A stretch of DNA of 64,000 nucleotides, taken from the sequence record KM606994. The stretch is one strand, 5' to 3'. The notes under the pieces were generated by a model. That model had not been told where the DNA came from. It did no database searches and worked only from the letters and a program-made list of their open reading frames with translations. Source of the stretch: Escherichia phage RB3. The translations under genes and the position numbers were made by a program. The stretch's first letter is position 1; each line of letters starts with the position of its first letter. Shown here piece by piece: positions 10,868 to 19,128 of the stretch.

Positions 10868-11371
10868 TCAAGTATTGTAAAACATTTGATTCAATCGCTT
10901 ATATTGCCGAATCTTTTGGTCAGAAAAAGAAATTTGGGTTTCAAGCCATTCAATATATTCTGCCGCAGCTTGCATCAAATTTCCTTCATAGCCATCGTTA
11001 TTTTCTTGTGCAGCTAATTTAGCTAATGCGTATGAAATACGTTCACCTTGAAAATCAGCTTTAGGCTTCTGAACAACTTGATTAGTTCTCTCTACAACTT
11101 CTTCAATTTCGCCATTTTCTACTGATTCAGTATTCCACAAGCACCAATACGTAATTGGCTTATCGTAGATGTTAATAATCTTTCCATCAGAAAGTTCAAT
11201 TTCAATAATTCCAGTGTCAGGCTCTATATCATCTTCACATTCTTTTGCGAGTTCACGAACTTTAAAGACAGTACCTGCACTAAGTTCCGGCCAGTAATTA
11301 CACAGCCCTGTATCAGCACGATTAATTCTAAACCACTTATCTACTGTAATCATGTCCCATCTCCATATCAA
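10868..11371 (-). CDS. Hypothetical protein at the pin position (possible protease-inhibitor homologue)
   Basis: 167-aa ORF between 49 and nrdC; assignment by synteny only. Confidence 0.4.
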   Translation of the reverse strand: MIWRWDMITVDKWFRINRADTGLCNYWPELSAGTVFKVRELAKECEDDIEPDTGIIEIELSDGKIINIYDKPITYWCLWNTESVENGEIEEVVERTNQVVQKPKADFQGERISYALAKLAAQENNDGYEGNLMQAAAEYIEWLETQISFSDQKIRQYKRLNQMFYNT

Positions 11372-11476: not shown

Positions 11477-11797
11477 TTATAGCGTAATCCATTCTCGTAC
11501 TGTCTGAGTTACTACACGTTCATGGGGCTCGACTAGTTCAACAGTCGGAACTGCATAATACCAGTCAGAATGATAAGAACCTGACCGAGATTCATTTACA
11601 GCCACATGTACATTATGTTTTGGACTAAAGTAAACACACTGACGATATTGACATTTACCATCTTGCACCCAGTCTTCTATTTCGACAGGTTTAAGATAAT
11701 CGGAAAAATCGAAATCATAGTTTTCCGAAAATGCATCATGGTCTTCAATGATTTCGCTCAGAACTGCATCAACATCTAATTTATTTTCAATAGTCAT
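11477..11797 (-). CDS. Hypothetical acidic protein
   Basis: 106-aa ORF. Confidence 0.5.
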   Translation of the reverse strand: MTIENKLDVDAVLSEIIEDHDAFSENYDFDFSDYLKPVEIEDWVQDGKCQYRQCVYFSPKHNVHVAVNESRSGSYHSDWYYAVPTVELVEPHERVVTQTVREWITL

Positions 11798-12458: not shown

Positions 12459-12701
12459 TTATTCCTTAATTCCTAGTACTTGTTTAAAAGTCTCGTCGTA
12501 ATCAAGACTTTGGCCCGTTTGTTCTTTATGTTTGTATATAATATCACTTACTTCTGATAGCATATTTTTATATGAACGAGTTAAAGCAGATTTAAGCACG
12601 CTGTATCTATCAGGAAATTTACCATGTTCATTATAATAAGCTATTGCTAATTCACGGACTGCCTTTTCAGCAGTCTCCATATATTCTTTACGCTTTGTCA
12701 T
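12459..12701 (-). CDS. Hypothetical protein
   Basis: ORF trimmed to the internal Met ([13 protein letters not shown]...); the longer N-terminal reading overlaps the next gene. Confidence 0.45.
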
Positions 12702-13002
12702 TTTCTTCTCGGTCAAATCGGTGTTTACAATGGCGACATTTATAACGAAGATTATTAGTCTGCCAATGGACCAATTGCACCTGTTCAGTTCCACATTCAG
12801 GGCAATTAGGAACGTTTTTAGAAGCACGTTCGCGGCGTTCAACCATGACCATTACAGAATCCCAATTAATAGGGCTGCTGTAATCATCACAACCATGAAT
12901 CTTTCCACGCATTTCTAGATCGTCTTCTTCACCAGCCATAATAATTTTAATTAGACTAGAATTACTTGAAGCTGCAATGTCTTCTAATAGACGCTTTTTC
13001 AT
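12688..13002 (-). CDS. Zn-ribbon protein
   Basis: 104 aa with CPECG...CRHC cysteine pairs. Confidence 0.5.
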
Positions 13003-13928
13003 TTCAATACCTCAATAGCATTACGTAAACCATTTGCTTTTGCATTAAGAGCTTTTAACAATTTGGTGTGTTCTGCAATTTGGGCTTCAACTTCAGTCAA
13101 ACGGGCATTGAGATATTCACGTTCTTCACTCAGATTATCAACCTTTTCTACTTTAGGCTCTTTTACAACTGTCTTATATGTATTAGGGTTCTTCAGTTTA
13201 ATTAGAATGCGTGAACTGTATAACATTGAACCATTATCTTCGGTTTCGTCATACATTTCCACTACGTCCATAATTTTTAACATCATGCGGAGTTTATAAG
13301 ACAACGAACGAATAGTTTTGTTGTGCTTATTAATTTCTTTAGCTGTCATGGTGCCAAGATTACGTGAGTAATAATAAGGAACCTGGATATTAATTAATAC
13401 TGATGAACCACCTGGCTTGTGTGTTACTTCATCAGCAATAACCCAGTCCTTAACATGAACTGTATTTGTACGGTCATCGCCTGCAGTAAACAGCTTGCGA
13501 GCATGCTTAAAAAGCATATTCACTTGGTCATTGAATTGACAAGCAAATTTATCAGCAAATTTAGTTTCAGGAATGGTAGATAACCAATCAGCCAAATGGG
13601 TCTTTTTAACATCGTTAACAATAGTAAATTGAACCAAATCGGTTATAGATGTCGCAGATTTAATGAAGCTCGGCTTCATAAAGTTTTTAATGTTATCACG
13701 AGCTACAGTAGAAGATAACATACGAGAACGTTTAAACCATTCAAGCAAATTGCCTAACGAATGAGAATAAGCGTTTTGAGTATCTTTACAGATATGATTT
13801 TCCTGACCAACATATTGAAGGAAATCACGAAGAATATTATTGATTACTGCTCTGTGCCCGATCTGATAATTACGGTGTTTAGTAATAAGACTATCAAAAT
13901 AATCAATATAATGTTTACGAGTTTTCAT
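12999..13928 (-). CDS. Paralog family member A: globular domain plus C-terminal coiled coil
   Basis: 309 aa; shares the motif L..K(I/Y)MDVV with the next three genes; C-terminal heptad-like tail. Confidence 0.6.
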   Translation of the reverse strand: MKTRKHYIDYFDSLITKHRNYQIGHRAVINNILRDFLQYVGQENHICKDTQNAYSHSLGNLLEWFKRSRMLSSTVARDNIKNFMKPSFIKSATSITDLVQFTIVNDVKKTHLADWLSTIPETKFADKFACQFNDQVNMLFKHARKLFTAGDDRTNTVHVKDWVIADEVTHKPGGSSVLINIQVPYYYSRNLGTMTAKEINKHNKTIRSLSYKLRMMLKIMDVVEMYDETEDNGSMLYSSRILIKLKNPNTYKTVVKEPKVEKVDNLSEEREYLNARLTEVEAQIAEHTKLLKALNAKANGLRNAIEVLK

Positions 13929-13980
13929 GTTCTTCTCACTTGGTTAATGATTTATGCTCCGAGCCATCCTTGGCTTTAAA

Positions 13981-14982
13981 TTACTTAATTAACTGTAAAG
14001 CTTGTTCCAAACGATCAAGACGATTAACAGATTCTTCCCAAATCTTTTTAGCCTGCTCATATTCTTTCTGCGCTTTATTAGAAATTTCTAGAACTTCCTT
14101 ATAAGCTTTTTCTAGTGCAATAACTTCTGGACGAATTTCTATCGGTTCAGGTGAATCGTCAAGACATTCCATTAGTTCCTCAAGGGTAGTTTCTTCTTTA
14201 GGAGTATTCACAATTTCATCACATTTTTGTTGGTAAATTTCTTTATCAGTAGGTGAATAAGCACATTTCACTTCACGAAGGCTAATTACGAGTTTATATC
14301 CTTCCCAACCACCCATATTTTTGAAAGGATATGTATGAATACTTTTTACAGTTTCCATACAATCCAAAGCCGTCTCTAATTGACGAGTTATAGTGCTAGC
14401 AATTGAGAAAAATTTATTAATATTCTTTTGGTTAGCTTCTGGTGTAAAAAATTCGTAATTCACAAAAATAGCTACTTTATTTTTATCAAGCTCATATTCT
14501 TTTACGATAATCATATCAGAAGCCAAAGGATGAATTTGACGATAATCGCCATAACATAATTTAGAAGCTGATTTTAGAATTTGTCCTTTAAAAAGTCTGA
14601 AATTACTAATCCAACGACGAGTAAAAATATTCTTAGGGTCTTCTTTGATATTAAGATGATAAGAATTAACATCACCGAACCAATTGTATCCTATTACACC
14701 TTTAGTTCGTTTAATTTCTTTCCCAAAATTACCAAGAATATCCCGATTAACCAAATATGAAAGAAGACGAGACCCTTTAAAGATTATCTTAATATCATCT
14801 TTATCTACACGGCTAGAAATTTCACGAACTTCATGAATAAATTTACTGGAAGAAACAATACTTGCATCAATACTGCTGAGCCATTGATTGATAATAGAAA
14901 GAACAGCGTTCTGACTAGACATGGGTTTAACTTTATCATCAATAACGCTATTGAATGATTTGATATATTCGTTACGAGTCAT
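13981..14982 (-). CDS. Paralog family member B
   Basis: Start at internal Met (MTRNEY) because the first ATG lies inside the promoter; segment RWISNFRLFKGQILKSASKL resembles member C; coiled-coil tail. Confidence 0.6.
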   Translation of the reverse strand: MTRNEYIKSFNSVIDDKVKPMSSQNAVLSIINQWLSSIDASIVSSSKFIHEVREISSRVDKDDIKIIFKGSRLLSYLVNRDILGNFGKEIKRTKGVIGYNWFGDVNSYHLNIKEDPKNIFTRRWISNFRLFKGQILKSASKLCYGDYRQIHPLASDMIIVKEYELDKNKVAIFVNYEFFTPEANQKNINKFFSIASTITRQLETALDCMETVKSIHTYPFKNMGGWEGYKLVISLREVKCAYSPTDKEIYQQKCDEIVNTPKEETTLEELMECLDDSPEPIEIRPEVIALEKAYKEVLEISNKAQKEYEQAKKIWEESVNRLDRLEQALQLIK

Positions 14983-15010
14983 AATAATCTCCTCAGTAGA
15001 AAGTAAGAAC

Positions 15011-15040
15011 ATTATACCACATCCTTGTGGTAAAGTAAAC
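15011..15040 (-). promoter_or_regulatory. T4-type early promoter
   Basis: Minus strand reads GTTTAC-spacer-TGGTATAAT. Confidence 0.6.
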
Positions 15041-16062
15041 TAGTTCAGTGCATTTAGTGCATTGCTCAGTTTAGAACGTTGCTTCGTGAGATTTTTGACT
15101 TTTTCTTGTGCTTTTTCTAGCATCTTTTCAGCTTCTAACACTTCATTAGTTGCTTTAACGAGTTCATCATCTACTGCCTTGATAGACTTCTCAATCGCAT
15201 CCGCGTGCCATTTTTCAACAGGTTTAAGACTCGGATTTTCAACAGGAAGAAAATTCACTTTATTGAATTTCCATGCATCTTTATTACCTGAGCTATACAT
15301 CCAAAATTTAGGATCGTTTGATAAGTAATTGGATAAATTTAAGTTATCTTGCACTTCCTGCTTTTTCTCTTGCGGGACTTCGTCCTTTCTCAAAAAATCG
15401 TATTTAAATGAAACGATCATATCAAGTTCATATGTTGTTGTATGTTCCCAATTTCGCTCAAAACGAGGTAAAATCTTAGATTGAACAGCAGCAACAACAT
15501 CCATATACTTAAATGCTTCTGTCAACTGCGATTTAAGGCATTCACAAATTGAAAGAGAATTTTTTGTATTAGGTTTAAAGCTAATTCGCGCAGTTCTATT
15601 ATTTTCTTTTAATGGTCTTACTTCCATCTGAAGAGTATAACCATCAAATTTCAGGTTCTTTAAGTTAATATCAGAGCCTTTTAATCGACTAGCAGTAGAC
15701 AAAATTTGCTTTAATTGTTTACGGAATAGAGCAATAAATCTCCATTCAATACGATAATGATTTGGATTGAAAAATCCAGATGATAAATCGACCTTACTTT
15801 GACCAACGCCTTGAACAATCAAAGGATTTTTATAATCAATAGTTTTACAGAAATCGGTGAGCTGTTCACGAGCAGTCATTTGTGTAATATACCCTGCTTT
15901 ACTAAAATTACGCACCCATTCACTGCTATTCGTATACTTAAAGTGATGAATAACACGATTAACTTTATCAGGGTCTAAATTATTTTCACACAAAAATGTC
16001 ATAACATCACGAGTATAGCTGGCATTACGAACCATATCTTCAATTTGAGAACGAGTTTTCAT
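15040..16062 (-). CDS. Paralog family member C
   Basis: 340 aa; RFIALFRKQLKQILSTASRL and KYMDVVAAV motifs; C-terminal coiled coil. Confidence 0.6.
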   Translation of the reverse strand: MKTRSQIEDMVRNASYTRDVMTFLCENNLDPDKVNRVIHHFKYTNSSEWVRNFSKAGYITQMTAREQLTDFCKTIDYKNPLIVQGVGQSKVDLSSGFFNPNHYRIEWRFIALFRKQLKQILSTASRLKGSDINLKNLKFDGYTLQMEVRPLKENNRTARISFKPNTKNSLSICECLKSQLTEAFKYMDVVAAVQSKILPRFERNWEHTTTYELDMIVSFKYDFLRKDEVPQEKKQEVQDNLNLSNYLSNDPKFWMYSSGNKDAWKFNKVNFLPVENPSLKPVEKWHADAIEKSIKAVDDELVKATNEVLEAEKMLEKAQEKVKNLTKQRSKLSNALNALN

Positions 16063-16070
16063 GGTGTTCC

Positions 16071-16979
16071 TTAAGATTTAAGTAAATCAACAATTTTAAT
16101 TAACTTTTCACGCTCAGATTTAGCTTTACTACTCAGTCCAGATAGTCTGAAAATTTCATCATCATATTGCTGAATAGAAATATTCAGCTCTTCAATCTGC
16201 TTATTAAAATAATCAATTTGTTCAGAATGTTTTTCGTTACTACGAACTGGTACAGGTTTTGTAGGTAATTTAGATGAACTGGATTCATCCGGGCGATAAA
16301 TTAAAATACAACTTGAACCAATTGGACATTTTGCACCAGATGAATATTCTAATGTTCCGGCTTCTTTTAAAACTTCAAAAGCTAAACAGAGATGATGCCC
16401 CATATTAACATAATCAGTAGAGCGAGCTCTGACGTAATAATCATCTCCACGAGTACTAAATTTAAAGCATTTAAGGTCTTCTGTATTATTGGTCTTAAAA
16501 ATCATTTGTTTATCTAGACCTTTAGCTAATCGAGCGCCTAATGCTAATAATCGTCGTTGATTTTCCCACAAATCCGCAATCATTTGATCGAATGATAATT
16601 TCGGCATTAGTCGACCATAAAGGTCATATCCTTTATTATAATTGCGAAGGATTTCACTCGCATTAATACGAGACAACGCTCCAATTTTATTAAGGGCTTT
16701 CATGATGCGATTAGATAAACCCATTCCAGACCCGTTTGTTCGTTGTAAATGTTTATCTAATCCAAACCCAATATCAACTTTAAATTTATCTAAAATTTCA
16801 GCATGAACATCTCTGTCAATAACATTCAAATCCAAAGTTGGGTTAAATCTATGAAAAAATTTATCTGGCTCTCCACGACGAAGTACAGTCCATTCATTCA
16901 ATTTTTTATTAACTAAAGATTTAATTACTGCATTGACATTATTAATTACTACTGACATATTTTCCTCACTCAATTTCAA
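16071..16979 (-). CDS. Paralog family member D (more divergent)
   Basis: 302 aa; weaker LCLAFEVLKEAG motif and a C-terminal coiled coil; start overlaps the upstream membrane-protein gene. Confidence 0.55.
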   Translation of the reverse strand: MKLSEENMSVVINNVNAVIKSLVNKKLNEWTVLRRGEPDKFFHRFNPTLDLNVIDRDVHAEILDKFKVDIGFGLDKHLQRTNGSGMGLSNRIMKALNKIGALSRINASEILRNYNKGYDLYGRLMPKLSFDQMIADLWENQRRLLALGARLAKGLDKQMIFKTNNTEDLKCFKFSTRGDDYYVRARSTDYVNMGHHLCLAFEVLKEAGTLEYSSGAKCPIGSSCILIYRPDESSSSKLPTKPVPVRSNEKHSEQIDYFNKQIEELNISIQQYDDEIFRLSGLSSKAKSEREKLIKIVDLLKS

Positions 16980-17373
16980 TTTTACTAAATACGCAGAATA
17001 TGATGGAAAAGACTATATAAGCACCGCATACAGATTGAACTAATACCATTCCAAAGAACCAAACAATATTATCAAACAATGTCTGTTTTACGTCGAAAGG
17101 ACGTAAACTTACAATAATATTATCACCTTTTTCTATTGAAGAATACATCTCTGGTGAAATATATTCGCTAAATCTATAACCGTCATTTAGTTCATATACG
17201 GCAATAAACGATAAACTAGACCCCTTTCCTTGAGTTCCTGTAAGGGTATTAACTACAGTAACATCATAATCTTTATAATGCATATAATCATTAATAGCAT
17301 AATAACCATATGCAACTACTACACATAAACAGCATATCAATAAATTCAATCTTTTAATTATCAACTGTTTCAT
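16966..17373 (-). CDS. Small membrane protein with two hydrophobic segments
   Basis: 135 aa; hydrophobic N- and C-terminal helices; translationally coupled to member D. Confidence 0.55.
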   Translation of the reverse strand: MKQLIIKRLNLLICCLCVVVAYGYYAINDYMHYKDYDVTVVNTLTGTQGKGSSLSFIAVYELNDGYRFSEYISPEMYSSIEKGDNIIVSLRPFDVKQTLFDNIVWFFGMVLVQSVCGAYIVFSIIFCVFSKIEIE

Positions 17374-17401
17374 AATAATCTCAATTAAAAGGGCTTAGAA
17401 C

Positions 17402-17440
17402 CATTATACCATCCTTGGTATAAAGCGGTTATGCGAGTAC
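17402..17440 (-). promoter_or_regulatory. Early promoter with a strong extended -10
   Basis: Minus strand TGGTATAAT with a weak -35. Confidence 0.4.
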
Positions 17441-17956
17441 CGTCTTTAACCGTTCTTCAAACTTCCGAAGAGTATTCTGGCGTTCAGCTCTTTGCTTTTT
17501 ATAAGTTTCAATACGCTCTGAAATGAGAGTGCATCGTTCATTTACTGATTCTTTCATAAAATCAGGAATTTCACGAGAAGCTTTAATCTCATCAAATTTA
17601 TCAATAACAGCTTGCTCTTCAGCAATTAAGTTATCATACATCAAAATATCTTTCTTGATGAACTCAATATCTTCTTGAGTTACACGAGATAACTTAGATG
17701 CTTTATCCTTTTTGTACTGTTCGTTAGTATCACGAGACCAATGTAATGTACGATTTTTATTCGTATTCTTGTAAATTTCTACGATACCAATCTCATCAAT
17801 AATAACGATCCAATTCCAACGGGATTTGTAAATTTGTCCTCCATCAACCGTGATTTCACCACCGATTGAGACATCATTAAAGAACTTGCTTTGAGCTTCA
17901 GATTTAAATTTACCATCGTTGTAATTTACCAGGTTGAAAATATCTTTAGCGTTCAT
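17429..17956 (-). CDS. Hypothetical protein with C-terminal coiled coil
   Basis: 175-aa ORF with its own promoter; C-terminal heptad-like tail. Confidence 0.55.
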   Translation of the reverse strand: MNAKDIFNLVNYNDGKFKSEAQSKFFNDVSIGGEITVDGGQIYKSRWNWIVIIDEIGIVEIYKNTNKNRTLHWSRDTNEQYKKDKASKLSRVTQEDIEFIKKDILMYDNLIAEEQAVIDKFDEIKASREIPDFMKESVNERCTLISERIETYKKQRAERQNTLRKFEERLKTVLA

Positions 17957-17969
17957 TTTGTGTTCCTCC

Positions 17970-18014
17970 GTAGTTGATAGTTGTATAGTACCACAGAGGA
18001 ACAGTCTTGTAAAC
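17970..18014 (-). promoter_or_regulatory. Early promoter cassette
   Basis: Minus strand GTTTACA-16 nt-TGGTACTATAC followed by the conserved box AACTATCAACTAC. Confidence 0.6.
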
Positions 18015-18401: not shown

Positions 18402-19128
18402 TTAGGATTCTTCTAAATGTCTTTTCTGAAAAGTTGATACCATACTACGATACGGTTCATTTGGATACCCGTGTTTTATAGCTTCCTTTGTAAATTTTCT
18501 CCATCCATATTTAGTTTTTTTCCAAAGCTCGAATAATTCATCTTCATATTGCCATATAGTTAAATGAGAACGCTTTGCAGCTTTAATTCCATTAATATGC
18601 TTTTCTTTTACTACAGGATTGCTTAGTTTCTTTTTAATAATATTACTAACTTTTCTAACAAAAACTGGGTCCTTATATCGTTGCGAAGTTTTTATTGAAG
18701 TGTTTAATTTAGCTTCCGGCGTGGATGTAACCTCTTTCATCTTTTTCTTCATATGCTGTATATGATTAGGATTTTTCCATAAATTTATAGAATGCTTTTT
18801 GCATTTTATCCTAGTTTCATCTGCAACCTTTCCTCCTTCACCCCCCCCCCCCGTATGACAGGTTAACACAGTTTTTTCCATATTTCAATTTACCTGCCAT
18901 GATATATAATATTTCAGCTTGTACCATTTTATCATAATTATCAAAAACTTCTAAAACCGTTTTTGATAATATGTGGTCATTTGACACTTTTACACGTTCT
19001 ATATAATTTCCACTACCAACATACGAATCATTGATGTTATTAGTTATATGTCGACCATAATAGTATTTCTTAATACCTGTCTTTAAATTTAATATTTCAG
19101 TTTTATAGATAGTAAAATATTTTTTCAT
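18402..19128 (-). pseudogene. GIY-YIG homing endonuclease gene interrupted by a frameshift at a 12-nt homopolymer
   Basis: N-terminal ORF (18838-19128) has the GIY-YIG module YFTIYKT...KKYYYGRH and ends GGGG-stop; C-terminal ORF (18402-18881) has basic repeats; C12 run at 18841-18852 joins them. Confidence 0.65.

What the first reader, a model, noticed from the sequence alone, without database searches (positions are those of the whole stretch)
12999..17956. Tandem family of four paralogous ~300-340 aa proteins with coiled-coil tails, plus a coupled membrane protein
Four consecutive minus-strand genes (12999-13928, 13981-14982, 15040-16062, 16071-16979) encode similar-sized proteins that each end in a ~40-50 residue heptad-like helix. 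Members B and C share the segment R(W/F)I..FR...QIL.(S/T)AS(K/R)L, and A, B, C (D more weakly) share a motif around L....(K/D)(I/Y/C)M(D/E)(V/T)V, so they look like diverged tandem duplicates. A 135-aa two-helix membrane protein (16966-17373) is translationally coupled to member D, and a 175-aa protein with the same kind of coiled-coil tail follows (17429-17956). Tandem diversifying paralogs with an oligomerisation tail next to a membrane component in an early-transcribed accessory block is the architecture expected of a host-takeover or anti-defence module. I cannot tell from memory whether T4 nrdC.x proteins correspond to these.
Basis: seen in the sequence. Interest (0 to 1): 0.7.

Follow-up and report, generated by a model that had tools for sequence, protein, structure and literature searches.

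The report
T4 nrdC.3–nrdC.6 paralogue array, RB6
These are the phage-T4-type early accessory genes nrdC.3 to nrdC.8: three, probably four, of them are diverged tandem copies of one protein type (fast-evolving head, floppy linker, helical tail), and one copy, nrdC.5, is already published as a blocker of the bacterial immune protein Dsr1, so its uncharacterised siblings are candidate immune blockers.

Summary
The window is phage RB6, a close relative of T4. The six genes are one-to-one orthologues of T4 nrdC.3, .4, .5, .6, .7 and .8.

**Observation: mostly correct.**
- nrdC.3 and nrdC.4 are clear paralogues.
- nrdC.6 shows no significant sequence similarity. Its AlphaFold model has the same order of secondary-structure elements as nrdC.5, the two models share structural neighbours, and one Yersinia-phage protein matches both families. 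It is a probable remote member.
- nrdC.8 shares only a helical tail.
- The membrane protein nrdC.7 is absent or relocated in sister genera, so it is not a conserved partner.

**Interpretation: partly supported.** Srikant et al. 2022 showed that T4 nrdC.5 neutralises the sirtuin defence Dsr1. The neighbouring gene 49.2 inhibits the OLD defence.

**Further findings.**
- Copy number varies from three to four between phages.
- nrdC.3 exists as deeply diverged alleles.
- Within each orthologue family the tail is the most conserved part and the head the least.
- No known fold or solved structure matches.

The targets of nrdC.3, .4 and .6 and the mechanism remain inferred.

The parts
12999..13928 (-). 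Gene A = nrdC.3, 309 aa. Paralogue of nrdC.4. The RB6-type allele is only 60.7% identical to T4 nrdC.3.
   Evidence: ORF. PHROG 1435. T4 and ime09 synteny. Identity and dS = 1.03 against T4. Discrete allele classes across phages.
13002..13154 (-). Helical heptad tail of A (aa 259–309).
   Evidence: Heptad score above the 95th percentile of shuffles. Not modelled.
13981..14982 (-). Gene B = nrdC.4, 333 aa. The conserved start is at 14982.
   Evidence: ORF. PHROG 1435. Precomputed Pfam PF26897 for its homologues. 91% identical to T4. Absent from phage G10400.
13984..14136 (-). Tail of B (aa 283–333). Charged and helix-like, with 3-4 spacing and an atypical core (S, A, Y, W).
   Evidence: Sequence read directly. 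The crude heptad score did not pass. It is the most conserved region across genera, 61–65% identity.
15040..16062 (-). Gene C = nrdC.5, 340 aa, DUF7235. Orthologue of the published anti-Dsr1 factor of T4.
   Evidence: Pfam PF23882, 439.5 bits. 95% identical to T4 nrdC.5. Published function. Model with pLDDT 76.
15379..16062 (-). Head of C (aa 1–228): five N-terminal helices, then an αα-ββ-α-ββ core.
   Evidence: AlphaFold model. This is the region aligned to the A/B family by hhalign, C residues 50–200.
15220..15378 (-). Low-confidence, probably disordered linker of C (aa 229–281).
   Evidence: pLDDT below 50 for residues 229–278.
15043..15219 (-). Tail of C (aa 282–340): one continuous helix with heptad periodicity.
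   Evidence: Model helix 282–339. Heptad score. Most conserved region across genera.
16071..16958 (-). Gene D = nrdC.6, 295 aa from the conserved ATG. Probable remote member of the same fold family.
   Evidence: Start. PHROG 2257. Precomputed Pfam PF26899. Model with pLDDT 77.5 and the same element order as C. Structural neighbours shared with C.
16074..16235 (-). Tail of D (aa 242–295): helix, break at a conserved glycine, helix. Many surface residues are invariant.
   Evidence: Model. Invariant columns, including QQ.DDEI.RL.GL. 60–69% identity across genera against 17–59% in the head.
16966..17373 (-). Gene E = nrdC.7, 135 aa, two hydrophobic segments. A neighbour, not a conserved part of the family.
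   Evidence: Hydropathy. Absent from or relocated in other genera.
17429..17956 (-). Gene F = nrdC.8, 175 aa, helical tail. Present upstream of nrdC.6 in every E. coli-infecting T-even genus examined. No detectable homology to A–D.
   Evidence: PHROG 2274. hhalign probabilities below 6%. dN/dS 0.03–0.07.
15011..15039 (-). Promoter-like site in the C–B spacer (TTTACT, 17 nt, TATAAT, with TG), containing a CAAGGATG hairpin.
   Evidence: Scan. Spacer sequence. The equivalent site is annotated as a predicted early promoter in phage fPS-65.
17374..17428 (-). F–E spacer: GCTTTA box, CAAGGATG hairpin and TATAAT. It is a duplicate of the cassette in front of B.
   Evidence: Spacer sequences. Motif count. 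fPS-65 annotates a predicted middle promoter upstream of nrdC.7.
13929..13980 (-). B–A spacer carrying the third copy of the CAAGGATG hairpin.
17985..18013 (-). Promoter-like site upstream of F (TTTACA, 17 nt, TACTAT, with TG).

Best explanation
The block is the T-even nrdC.3–nrdC.8 accessory cluster.

**What it is.** nrdC.3, nrdC.4 and nrdC.5, and probably nrdC.6, descend from one ancestral gene by tandem duplication. They keep one architecture: a globular head of about 230 aa (N-terminal helical bundle plus an αα-ββ-α-ββ core), a low-confidence linker, and a C-terminal helical tail of 50–58 aa.

**How it most likely works.** They are early or middle expressed, dispensable antagonists of host immunity. 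nrdC.5 is known to neutralise the NAD-depleting sirtuin defence Dsr1.

**Inferred steps.**
- The head binds the host immune protein before the late-made trigger appears. For Dsr1 that would be at or near its TPR sensor, which a preprint reports to recognise major capsid proteins.
- The paralogue-specific tail oligomerises the protein or docks it to a conserved partner.
- The other paralogues do the same job against other defence proteins or variants.

**Shown versus inferred.** Shown here: identity of the genes, paralogy of A, B and C, the architecture, copy-number and allele variation, and the conservation pattern. Taken from the literature: the anti-Dsr1 activity of nrdC.5. Inferred: direct binding, the role of the tail, and any anti-defence role of nrdC.3, nrdC.4 and nrdC.6.
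For: **Identity.**
- The finding's interval (12999–17956) is 100% identical to phage RB6.
- T4 synteny and numbering. C is 95% identical to T4 nrdC.5.

**Paralogy.**
- PHROG 1435 holds both A and B.
- A/B family against C family: hhalign 93.9%, and 94.9% for heads only.

**D as a probable member.**
- Its model has the same order of elements as C.
- Both models hit the same uncharacterised proteins of other T4-like phages. A0A2Z4QAR2: E 6.8e-8 for C and 4.8e-4 for D. A0A345AUV5: E 3.3e-6 for C and 5.9e-6 for D. TM-scores for D reach 0.44–0.50, too high for the tail alone.
- Yersinia phage gp94 matches both the A/B family (E 3e-4) and the D family (E 2.7e-4) over the same residues.
- PHROG cross-hits agree.

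**Function.**
- Plasmid-borne nrdC.5 rescues a T4 deletion clone on Dsr1-carrying cells, and nrdC.5 is described as an early, nonessential gene (PMC9391042).
- The Dsr1 sensor is reported to recognise major capsid proteins (PMC12803255).
- The neighbouring gene 49.2 inhibits OLD (PMC13096335).

**Accessory behaviour.**
- There are three copies in Mosigvirus, Dhakavirus and Gaprivervirus, and four in most Tequatrovirus.
- G10400 lacks nrdC.4.
- nrdC.3 has deeply diverged alleles.
- The nrdC.5 family has only 12 cluster representatives among 1.84 billion proteins.
- Heads diverge faster than tails within each orthologue family.
Against: - Only nrdC.5 has any functional data, and its mechanism is unpublished in the papers I could search.
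- D has no significant sequence link to the others (2–6%), and I could not superpose the two models directly.
- Gene-wide dN/dS is below 0.4 for all genes, so there is no signal of positive selection at that resolution.
- The oligomeric state of the tails is untested.
- Tails are not similar between paralogues, so a common tail function is an assumption.
Confidence: 0.55

Rival explanations
1. The paralogues serve host takeover rather than immunity, for example by acting on the host nucleoid, transcription or metabolism. On this view the anti-Dsr1 effect of nrdC.5 is indirect.
For: - The published rescue experiment does not show binding.
- The N-terminal bundle of A has weak, sub-threshold resemblance to the SAM-like N-terminal domain of tyrosine recombinases in two libraries (Pfam E 0.072; NCBIfam E 0.0015).
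Against: - The genes are dispensable on the laboratory host.
- They are variable in copy number.
- They sit beside other anti-defence genes. This pattern fits counter-defence better than core takeover.
Confidence: 0.2
2. Only nrdC.3, nrdC.4 and nrdC.5 are a family. nrdC.6, like nrdC.8, is an unrelated protein that shares just the general plan of a head plus a helical tail.
For: - hhalign of the D family against the A/B and C families gives 2–6% probability.
- The tail of D is a helix-turn-helix hairpin, not a single helix.
- Pfam and PHROGs keep it as a separate family.
Against: - The order of secondary-structure elements is the same as in C.
- The two models share Foldseek neighbours at probability 1.00, with TM-scores up to 0.5.
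- The bridging protein gp94 hits both families over the same residues, while unrelated ORFs of the same loci score E above 0.06.
- The weak C–D hhalign alignment ends at a shared motif, ...(A/S)RL.KG.D.
Confidence: 0.25
3. The six proteins form one membrane-anchored complex. The tails hetero-oligomerise and nrdC.7 anchors them.
For: E, D and C are packed 7–8 nt apart, with Shine-Dalgarno sequences overlapping the preceding stop codons. Five of the six proteins have helical tails.
Against: - nrdC.7 is absent from the cluster in JS98, WG01, VR26 and RZ, and lies next to nrdC in JS09.
- Tails are not similar between paralogues.
- nrdC.5 alone, expressed from a plasmid, is sufficient against Dsr1.
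Confidence: 0.07

Closest known systems
T4 NrdC.5 (DUF7235, Pfam PF23882), the anti-Dsr1 factor of Srikant et al. 2022
   Same: Gene C is its orthologue: 95% identity, the same position between nrdC.6 and nrdC.4, and a full-length Pfam match.
   Different: Activity was shown for the T4 protein, not the RB6 one. A, B and D do not reach the DUF7235 model in the Pfam scan; A and B are linked to it only by profile-profile comparison.
DSAD1, the phage inhibitor of the sirtuin defence DSR2
   Same: Possible functional analogy. It is a phage protein that stops a SIR2-type NADase defence, reportedly by occupying the sensor region (abstracts listed).
Other T4 accessory counter-defence genes (tifA, dmd, adfA, ipIII, gene 49.2)
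   Same: Early, dispensable genes clustered with other counter-defence genes, lost or amplified by recombination, and variable between relatives.
   Different: As described in the papers read, those are single small genes. Here one ancestral gene has expanded to three or four tandem copies of 300–340 aa with a modular head–linker–tail plan.
Uncharacterised 300–370 aa proteins of T4-like phages of Klebsiella, Erwinia, Acinetobacter, Pectobacterium, Yersinia and Aeromonas
   Same: They are the best structural matches of both models. Those examined have the same head-plus-helical-tail plan and lie in the same genome region.
   Different: Sequence similarity is marginal or absent. Positions in the region differ, for example upstream of nrdC.10 in fHe-Yen9-01. 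None has a known function.

Membership tests
NrdC.5 / DUF7235 (PF23882) | Full-length match to the Pfam model above its gathering score | tested here: met
   C scores 439.5 bits against a cut-off of 30, covering 1–340. A, B and D gave no match to this model.
NrdC.5 / DUF7235 (PF23882) | Orthology to T4 nrdC.5 by identity and gene order | tested here: met
   95% amino-acid identity, flanked by nrdC.6 and nrdC.4 as in T4.
NrdC.5 / DUF7235 (PF23882) | Neutralises Dsr1-mediated defence | not testable with these tools
   Shown for the T4 protein only, in PMC9391042.
nrdC.3/nrdC.4 family (PHROG 1435; precomputed Pfam PF26897) | Full-length match of both A and B to one family profile | tested here: met
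   A E 2e-115 and B E 3.2e-165 to phrog_1435. A against JS98 nrdC.4: 24% over 301 aa.
Proposed head–linker–tail superfamily (nrdC.3/4/5/6) | Significant profile-profile similarity of the head domains | tested here: met
   A/B family against C family: 94.9%, E 4.5e-8, heads only.
Proposed head–linker–tail superfamily (nrdC.3/4/5/6) | The same test for nrdC.6 (D) | tested here: inconclusive
   Sequence profiles give 2–6%. The models have the same element order and share Foldseek neighbours. There is a bridging sequence. No direct superposition was possible.
Coiled-coil tail | A long C-terminal helix with heptad periodicity above chance | tested here: met
   C helix 282–339 and D helices 242–271 and 277–294 in the models. 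The heptad score beats 95% of shuffles for A, C, D and F but not B. Oligomeric state was not tested.
DSAD1-type inhibitors of defence sirtuins | Sequence or fold similarity to DSAD1 | tested here: not met
Tail-terminator / tail-completion fold, or RNA polymerase alpha N-terminal domain / RPB11 fold | A confident structural match of the head core | tested here: inconclusive

The most novel reading that the evidence does not exclude
nrdC.3, nrdC.4, nrdC.5 and nrdC.6, together with a web of at least ten weakly linked PHROG families in T4-like phages of other hosts, form one fast-evolving superfamily of modular immune antagonists across the Straboviridae.

On this reading, an exchangeable head recognises a particular host immune sensor. 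A lineage-specific, strongly conserved helical tail provides oligomerisation or docking. T-even phages carry three or four tandem copies aimed at different defence systems, with Dsr1 the only target known so far.
Probability: 0.3. Interest if true: 0.7.

Novelty: new member of a known kind. Interest (0 to 1): 0.5.

Why it matters
If the siblings of nrdC.5 are also immune antagonists, this cluster offers three ready candidates (nrdC.3, nrdC.4, nrdC.6), plus many distant relatives in therapeutic T4-like phages of Klebsiella, Acinetobacter and Yersinia. These could be used to find new counter-defence activities and, through them, their bacterial targets.

The natural variation seen here includes loss of nrdC.4 in one phage, two deeply diverged nrdC.3 alleles, and three versus four copies between genera. 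This could help explain host-range differences among otherwise near-identical phages.

The head/tail conservation contrast gives a concrete design for experiments: head swaps and tail deletions.

The genes themselves and the nrdC.5 function are already known. The gain is a family-level link and a set of hypotheses, not a new kind of system.

Tried and rejected
- **Pairwise BLASTP of the six proteins.** Only A–B was significant.
- **tblastn of B, C and D against 50,697 phage records.** It almost never finds the paralogues in the same genome. Simple searches therefore miss the family, and profiles were needed.
- **Word-indexed protein search with C.** It returned only relatives above 81% identity.
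- **Full HMMER scan of 1.84 billion representatives with C.** It gave 12 hits, all phage-like, so no bacterial or wider relatives were found.
- **Tail-only profile comparisons.** No convincing similarity between paralogue tails; the best was B–C at 39%. I rejected common ancestry of the tails as unproven.
- **F as a short family member.** Rejected on sequence.
- **Pfam and NCBIfam scans.** Nothing above cut-off except DUF7235.
- **PDB sequence searches.** Nothing.
- **Positive selection.** Pairwise dN/dS values are all below 0.4.
- **Widening the Yersinia gp94 bridge into a profile.** Only six near-identical records exist.
- **The metagenome protein P0062.** It carries the nrdC.5 tail on an unrelated head and looked like evidence for head swapping. 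It rests on one 803-bp contig, and the junction may be an insertion or an assembly chimera, so I did not use it as evidence.

Full report
**1. What the region is**

The interval 12999–17956 is 100% identical to Enterobacteria phage RB6. It matches several hundred T4-like phages at 90–99%. In the T4 reference record the same order of genes is annotated nrdC.3, nrdC.4, nrdC.5, nrdC.6, nrdC.7 and nrdC.8, lying between nrdC and nrdC.10.

Amino-acid identity between RB6 and T4:

| Gene | Identity |
|---|---|
| nrdC.3 | 60.7% |
| nrdC.4 | 91% |
| nrdC.5 | 95% |
| nrdC.6 | 92% |
| nrdC.7 | 89.5% |
| nrdC.8 | 97.7% |

The four proteins are therefore one-to-one orthologues of T4 genes. All are annotated as hypothetical.

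**2. Checking the observation**

The ORFs are as described, with two points on start codons.
- nrdC.6 most likely starts at the ATG at 16958. All seven aligned homologues begin MS... at that point.
- nrdC.4 starts at 14982, where the first three residues are invariant.

Spacing on the coding (minus) strand:
- nrdC.7, nrdC.6 and nrdC.5 are 7–8 nt apart, with ribosome-binding sites overlapping the preceding stop codons.
- nrdC.8, nrdC.7, nrdC.4 and nrdC.3 are each preceded by a spacer of 52–60 nt.
- nrdC.3 overlaps the start of nrdC.2 by ATGA.

Promoter-like sites sit in the spacers in front of nrdC.8 and nrdC.4. The spacer in front of nrdC.7 carries a GCTTTA box and TATAAT. An independent phage record annotates a predicted early promoter before nrdC.4 and a predicted middle promoter before nrdC.7.

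**3. Are the four proteins paralogues?**

Pairwise BLASTP finds only A–B. Profiles are clearer.

*A and B.*
- Both match PHROG 1435 full length.
- A aligns with JS98 nrdC.4 over 301 residues.

*A/B and C.* I built family alignments from six other phages and from protein-database hits.
- The A/B family aligns to the C family with hhalign probability 93.9%, E 1.5e-7.
- With tails cut off, the figures are 94.9% and E 4.5e-8, so the result does not depend on coiled-coil composition.

*D.* It does not reach significance by sequence (2–6%). Three other observations connect it.
- AlphaFold models of C (pLDDT 76.3) and D (pLDDT 77.5) show the same order of elements: five N-terminal helices, two helices, two strands, one long helix, two strands, a low-confidence linker, then the C-terminal helical tail.
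- Foldseek against viral models returns the same uncharacterised proteins of other T4-like phages for both. These are Klebsiella phage Mineola A0A2Z4QAR2 and Acinetobacter phage fHyAci03 A0A345AUV5. TM-scores for D reach 0.44–0.50, which a 50-residue helix alone could not give.
- A 292-aa Yersinia phage protein (fHe-Yen9-01 gp94) matches the A/B profile (E 3e-4) and the D profile (E 2.7e-4) over the same 128 residues. Unrelated ORFs from the same loci score E above 0.06. PHROG cross-hits agree.

I rate D a probable remote member. nrdC.8 has a helical tail but no detectable relationship to the others.

**4. The tails**

- C ends in one 58-residue helix.
- D ends in two helices separated by a conserved glycine.
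- A crude heptad score beats 95% of shuffles for the tails of A, C, D and F, but not B.
- Within each orthologue family compared across genera, the tail is the best conserved region: C 31–61%, D 60–69%, B 61–65% identity. Parts of the head fall to 10–30%.
- In D many surface positions of the tail are invariant.
- Tails of different paralogues are not similar to each other.

This pattern suggests a paralogue-specific, constrained function for the tail and faster change in the head. It does not say what that function is.

**5. The membrane protein**

nrdC.7 has two hydrophobic segments. It is absent from the cluster in Dhakavirus (JS98, WG01) and Gaprivervirus (VR26, RZ). In Mosigvirus JS09 it lies between nrdC and nrdC.2. 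It is a neighbour, not a conserved partner.

**6. Variation**

- Dhakavirus and Gaprivervirus carry nrdC.4-, nrdC.5- and nrdC.6-type genes.
- Mosigvirus carries nrdC.3-, nrdC.5- and nrdC.6-type genes.
- Most Tequatrovirus carry all four.
- Tequatrovirus G10400 lacks nrdC.4.
- nrdC.3 falls into discrete classes relative to RB6: at least 90% identity, 74–78% (Mosigvirus), and about 60% (T4 and T6).
- Between RB6 and T4, dS for nrdC.3 is 1.03, against about 0.15 for its neighbours. This indicates an old allelic divergence or an exchange, not rapid change in place.
- Gene-wide dN/dS is 0.09–0.30 for the four paralogues. This is higher than for nrdC, nrdC.8 or nrdC.9 (0–0.07) but well below 1.
- The nrdC.5 family is very narrow: 12 cluster representatives among 1.84 billion proteins.

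**7. What is known about function**

- Srikant et al. (eLife 2022, PMC9391042) found that a T4 clone with compensatory deletions could no longer infect ECOR17. [quoted passage not shown] The mechanism was not addressed.
- A 2026 preprint reports that the TPR sensor of Dsr1 recognises phage major capsid proteins (PMC12803255).
- Two genes upstream of nrdC, gene 49.2 (present in this window at 11477–11797) is a published inhibitor of the OLD defence (PMC13096335).
- I found no paper assigning a function to nrdC.3, nrdC.4, nrdC.6 or nrdC.7. For nrdC.8 the only mention is a change in transcript level.

**8. Fold**

- Sequence searches of B, C, D and F found no solved structure.
- C has no sequence match to any PDB chain. 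DSAD1, the phage inhibitor of DSR2, has published cryo-EM structures, so it should be among the chains searched.

**9. Most likely mechanism**

- Shown here: a tandem family with a head–linker–tail plan, accessory behaviour, and a location among counter-defence genes.
- From the literature: nrdC.5 defeats Dsr1.
- Inferred: NrdC.5 is made early or mid infection and binds Dsr1 before the capsid protein appears. This would keep the sirtuin NADase off. The tail would supply oligomerisation or docking. The siblings would do the same for other defence proteins.
- An indirect mode of action for nrdC.5, or non-immune roles for the siblings, cannot be excluded.

**10. Verdict**

The genes and the nrdC.5 function are known. 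The family-level link between three separately curated families and the structural reach into other T4-like genera are modest additions. They turn nrdC.3, nrdC.4 and nrdC.6 into testable counter-defence candidates.

Noticed in passing
L007:6470-6700 (T4 NC_000866, 3' end of nrdC.6); window 16071-16235: In the T4 reference record nrdC.6 is annotated as 275 aa. A frameshift relative to RB6 replaces the last part of the tail, and the intact tail sequence continues in another frame. A newer T4 record (OZ209057.1) matches the full 302-aa RB6 query in one piece. The reference therefore probably carries a sequencing error or a strain-specific mutation.
   Followed up: partly
window 13965-13972, 15020-15027, 17410-17417 (minus strand): Three of the four CAAGGATG occurrences in the 64-kb window lie in the spacers in front of nrdC.3, nrdC.4 and nrdC.7. 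Each forms the loop and 3' arm of a short hairpin. The nrdC.4 and nrdC.7 spacers also share GGTATAATG...GAGATTATTATG, so they look like duplicated promoter and leader cassettes.
   Followed up: partly
window 12999-13928: nrdC.3 exists as deeply diverged alleles within Tequatrovirus. The RB6 type differs from the T4/T6 type at about 60% identity and dS about 1. The RB6 type is closer to the Mosigvirus gene (about 76%), which suggests exchange between genera.
   Followed up: partly
L011:1-803 (metagenome contig, protein P0062): A 173-aa ORF joins an unrelated head, whose reading frame extends upstream and contains a KIGDT...RL motif, in frame to the last 55 residues of nrdC.5 (95% identical). 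It is followed by the start of nrdC.4. It could be a natural head replacement, an insertion into nrdC.5, or an assembly chimera.
   Followed up: partly
protein P0056: A 299-aa protein is a fusion of the middle of nrdC.5 with the C-terminal two thirds of nrdC.3. This implies a deletion that removed nrdC.4 and parts of both neighbours in some phage.
   Followed up: no
window 11477-11797 and 10868-11371: Gene 49.2 is published in 2026 as an inhibitor of the OLD defence. The pin gene (Lon protease inhibitor) lies just beyond nrdC. The wider region therefore holds several counter-defence genes.
   Followed up: partly
window 18402-19128 (minus strand): Two overlapping ORFs of 96 and 159 aa lie between nrdC.9 and nrdC.10, where T4 has only a 95-nt spacer. 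Other phage records label the matching feature as a putative or homing endonuclease. Here it looks split into two frames. Pfam gave no match.
   Followed up: partly
window 12688-13002: nrdC.2 is a small protein with CPxC...CxxC zinc-ribbon motifs. In every genus examined it starts at or within a few bases of the stop codon of the last paralogue, whichever paralogue that is.
   Followed up: no
window 13671-13841 (aa 30-86 of nrdC.3): Two libraries independently give weak, sub-threshold matches of this helical segment to the N-terminal SAM-like domain of tyrosine recombinases (Pfam E 0.072, NCBIfam E 0.0015).
   Followed up: no
L008:13154-14128 (Klebsiella phage PKO111): An unannotated 324-aa ORF fills a 1-kb gap in the record's annotation. 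It matches the nrdC.3/4 family at hhalign 93.8% and has the same helical tail.
   Followed up: partly
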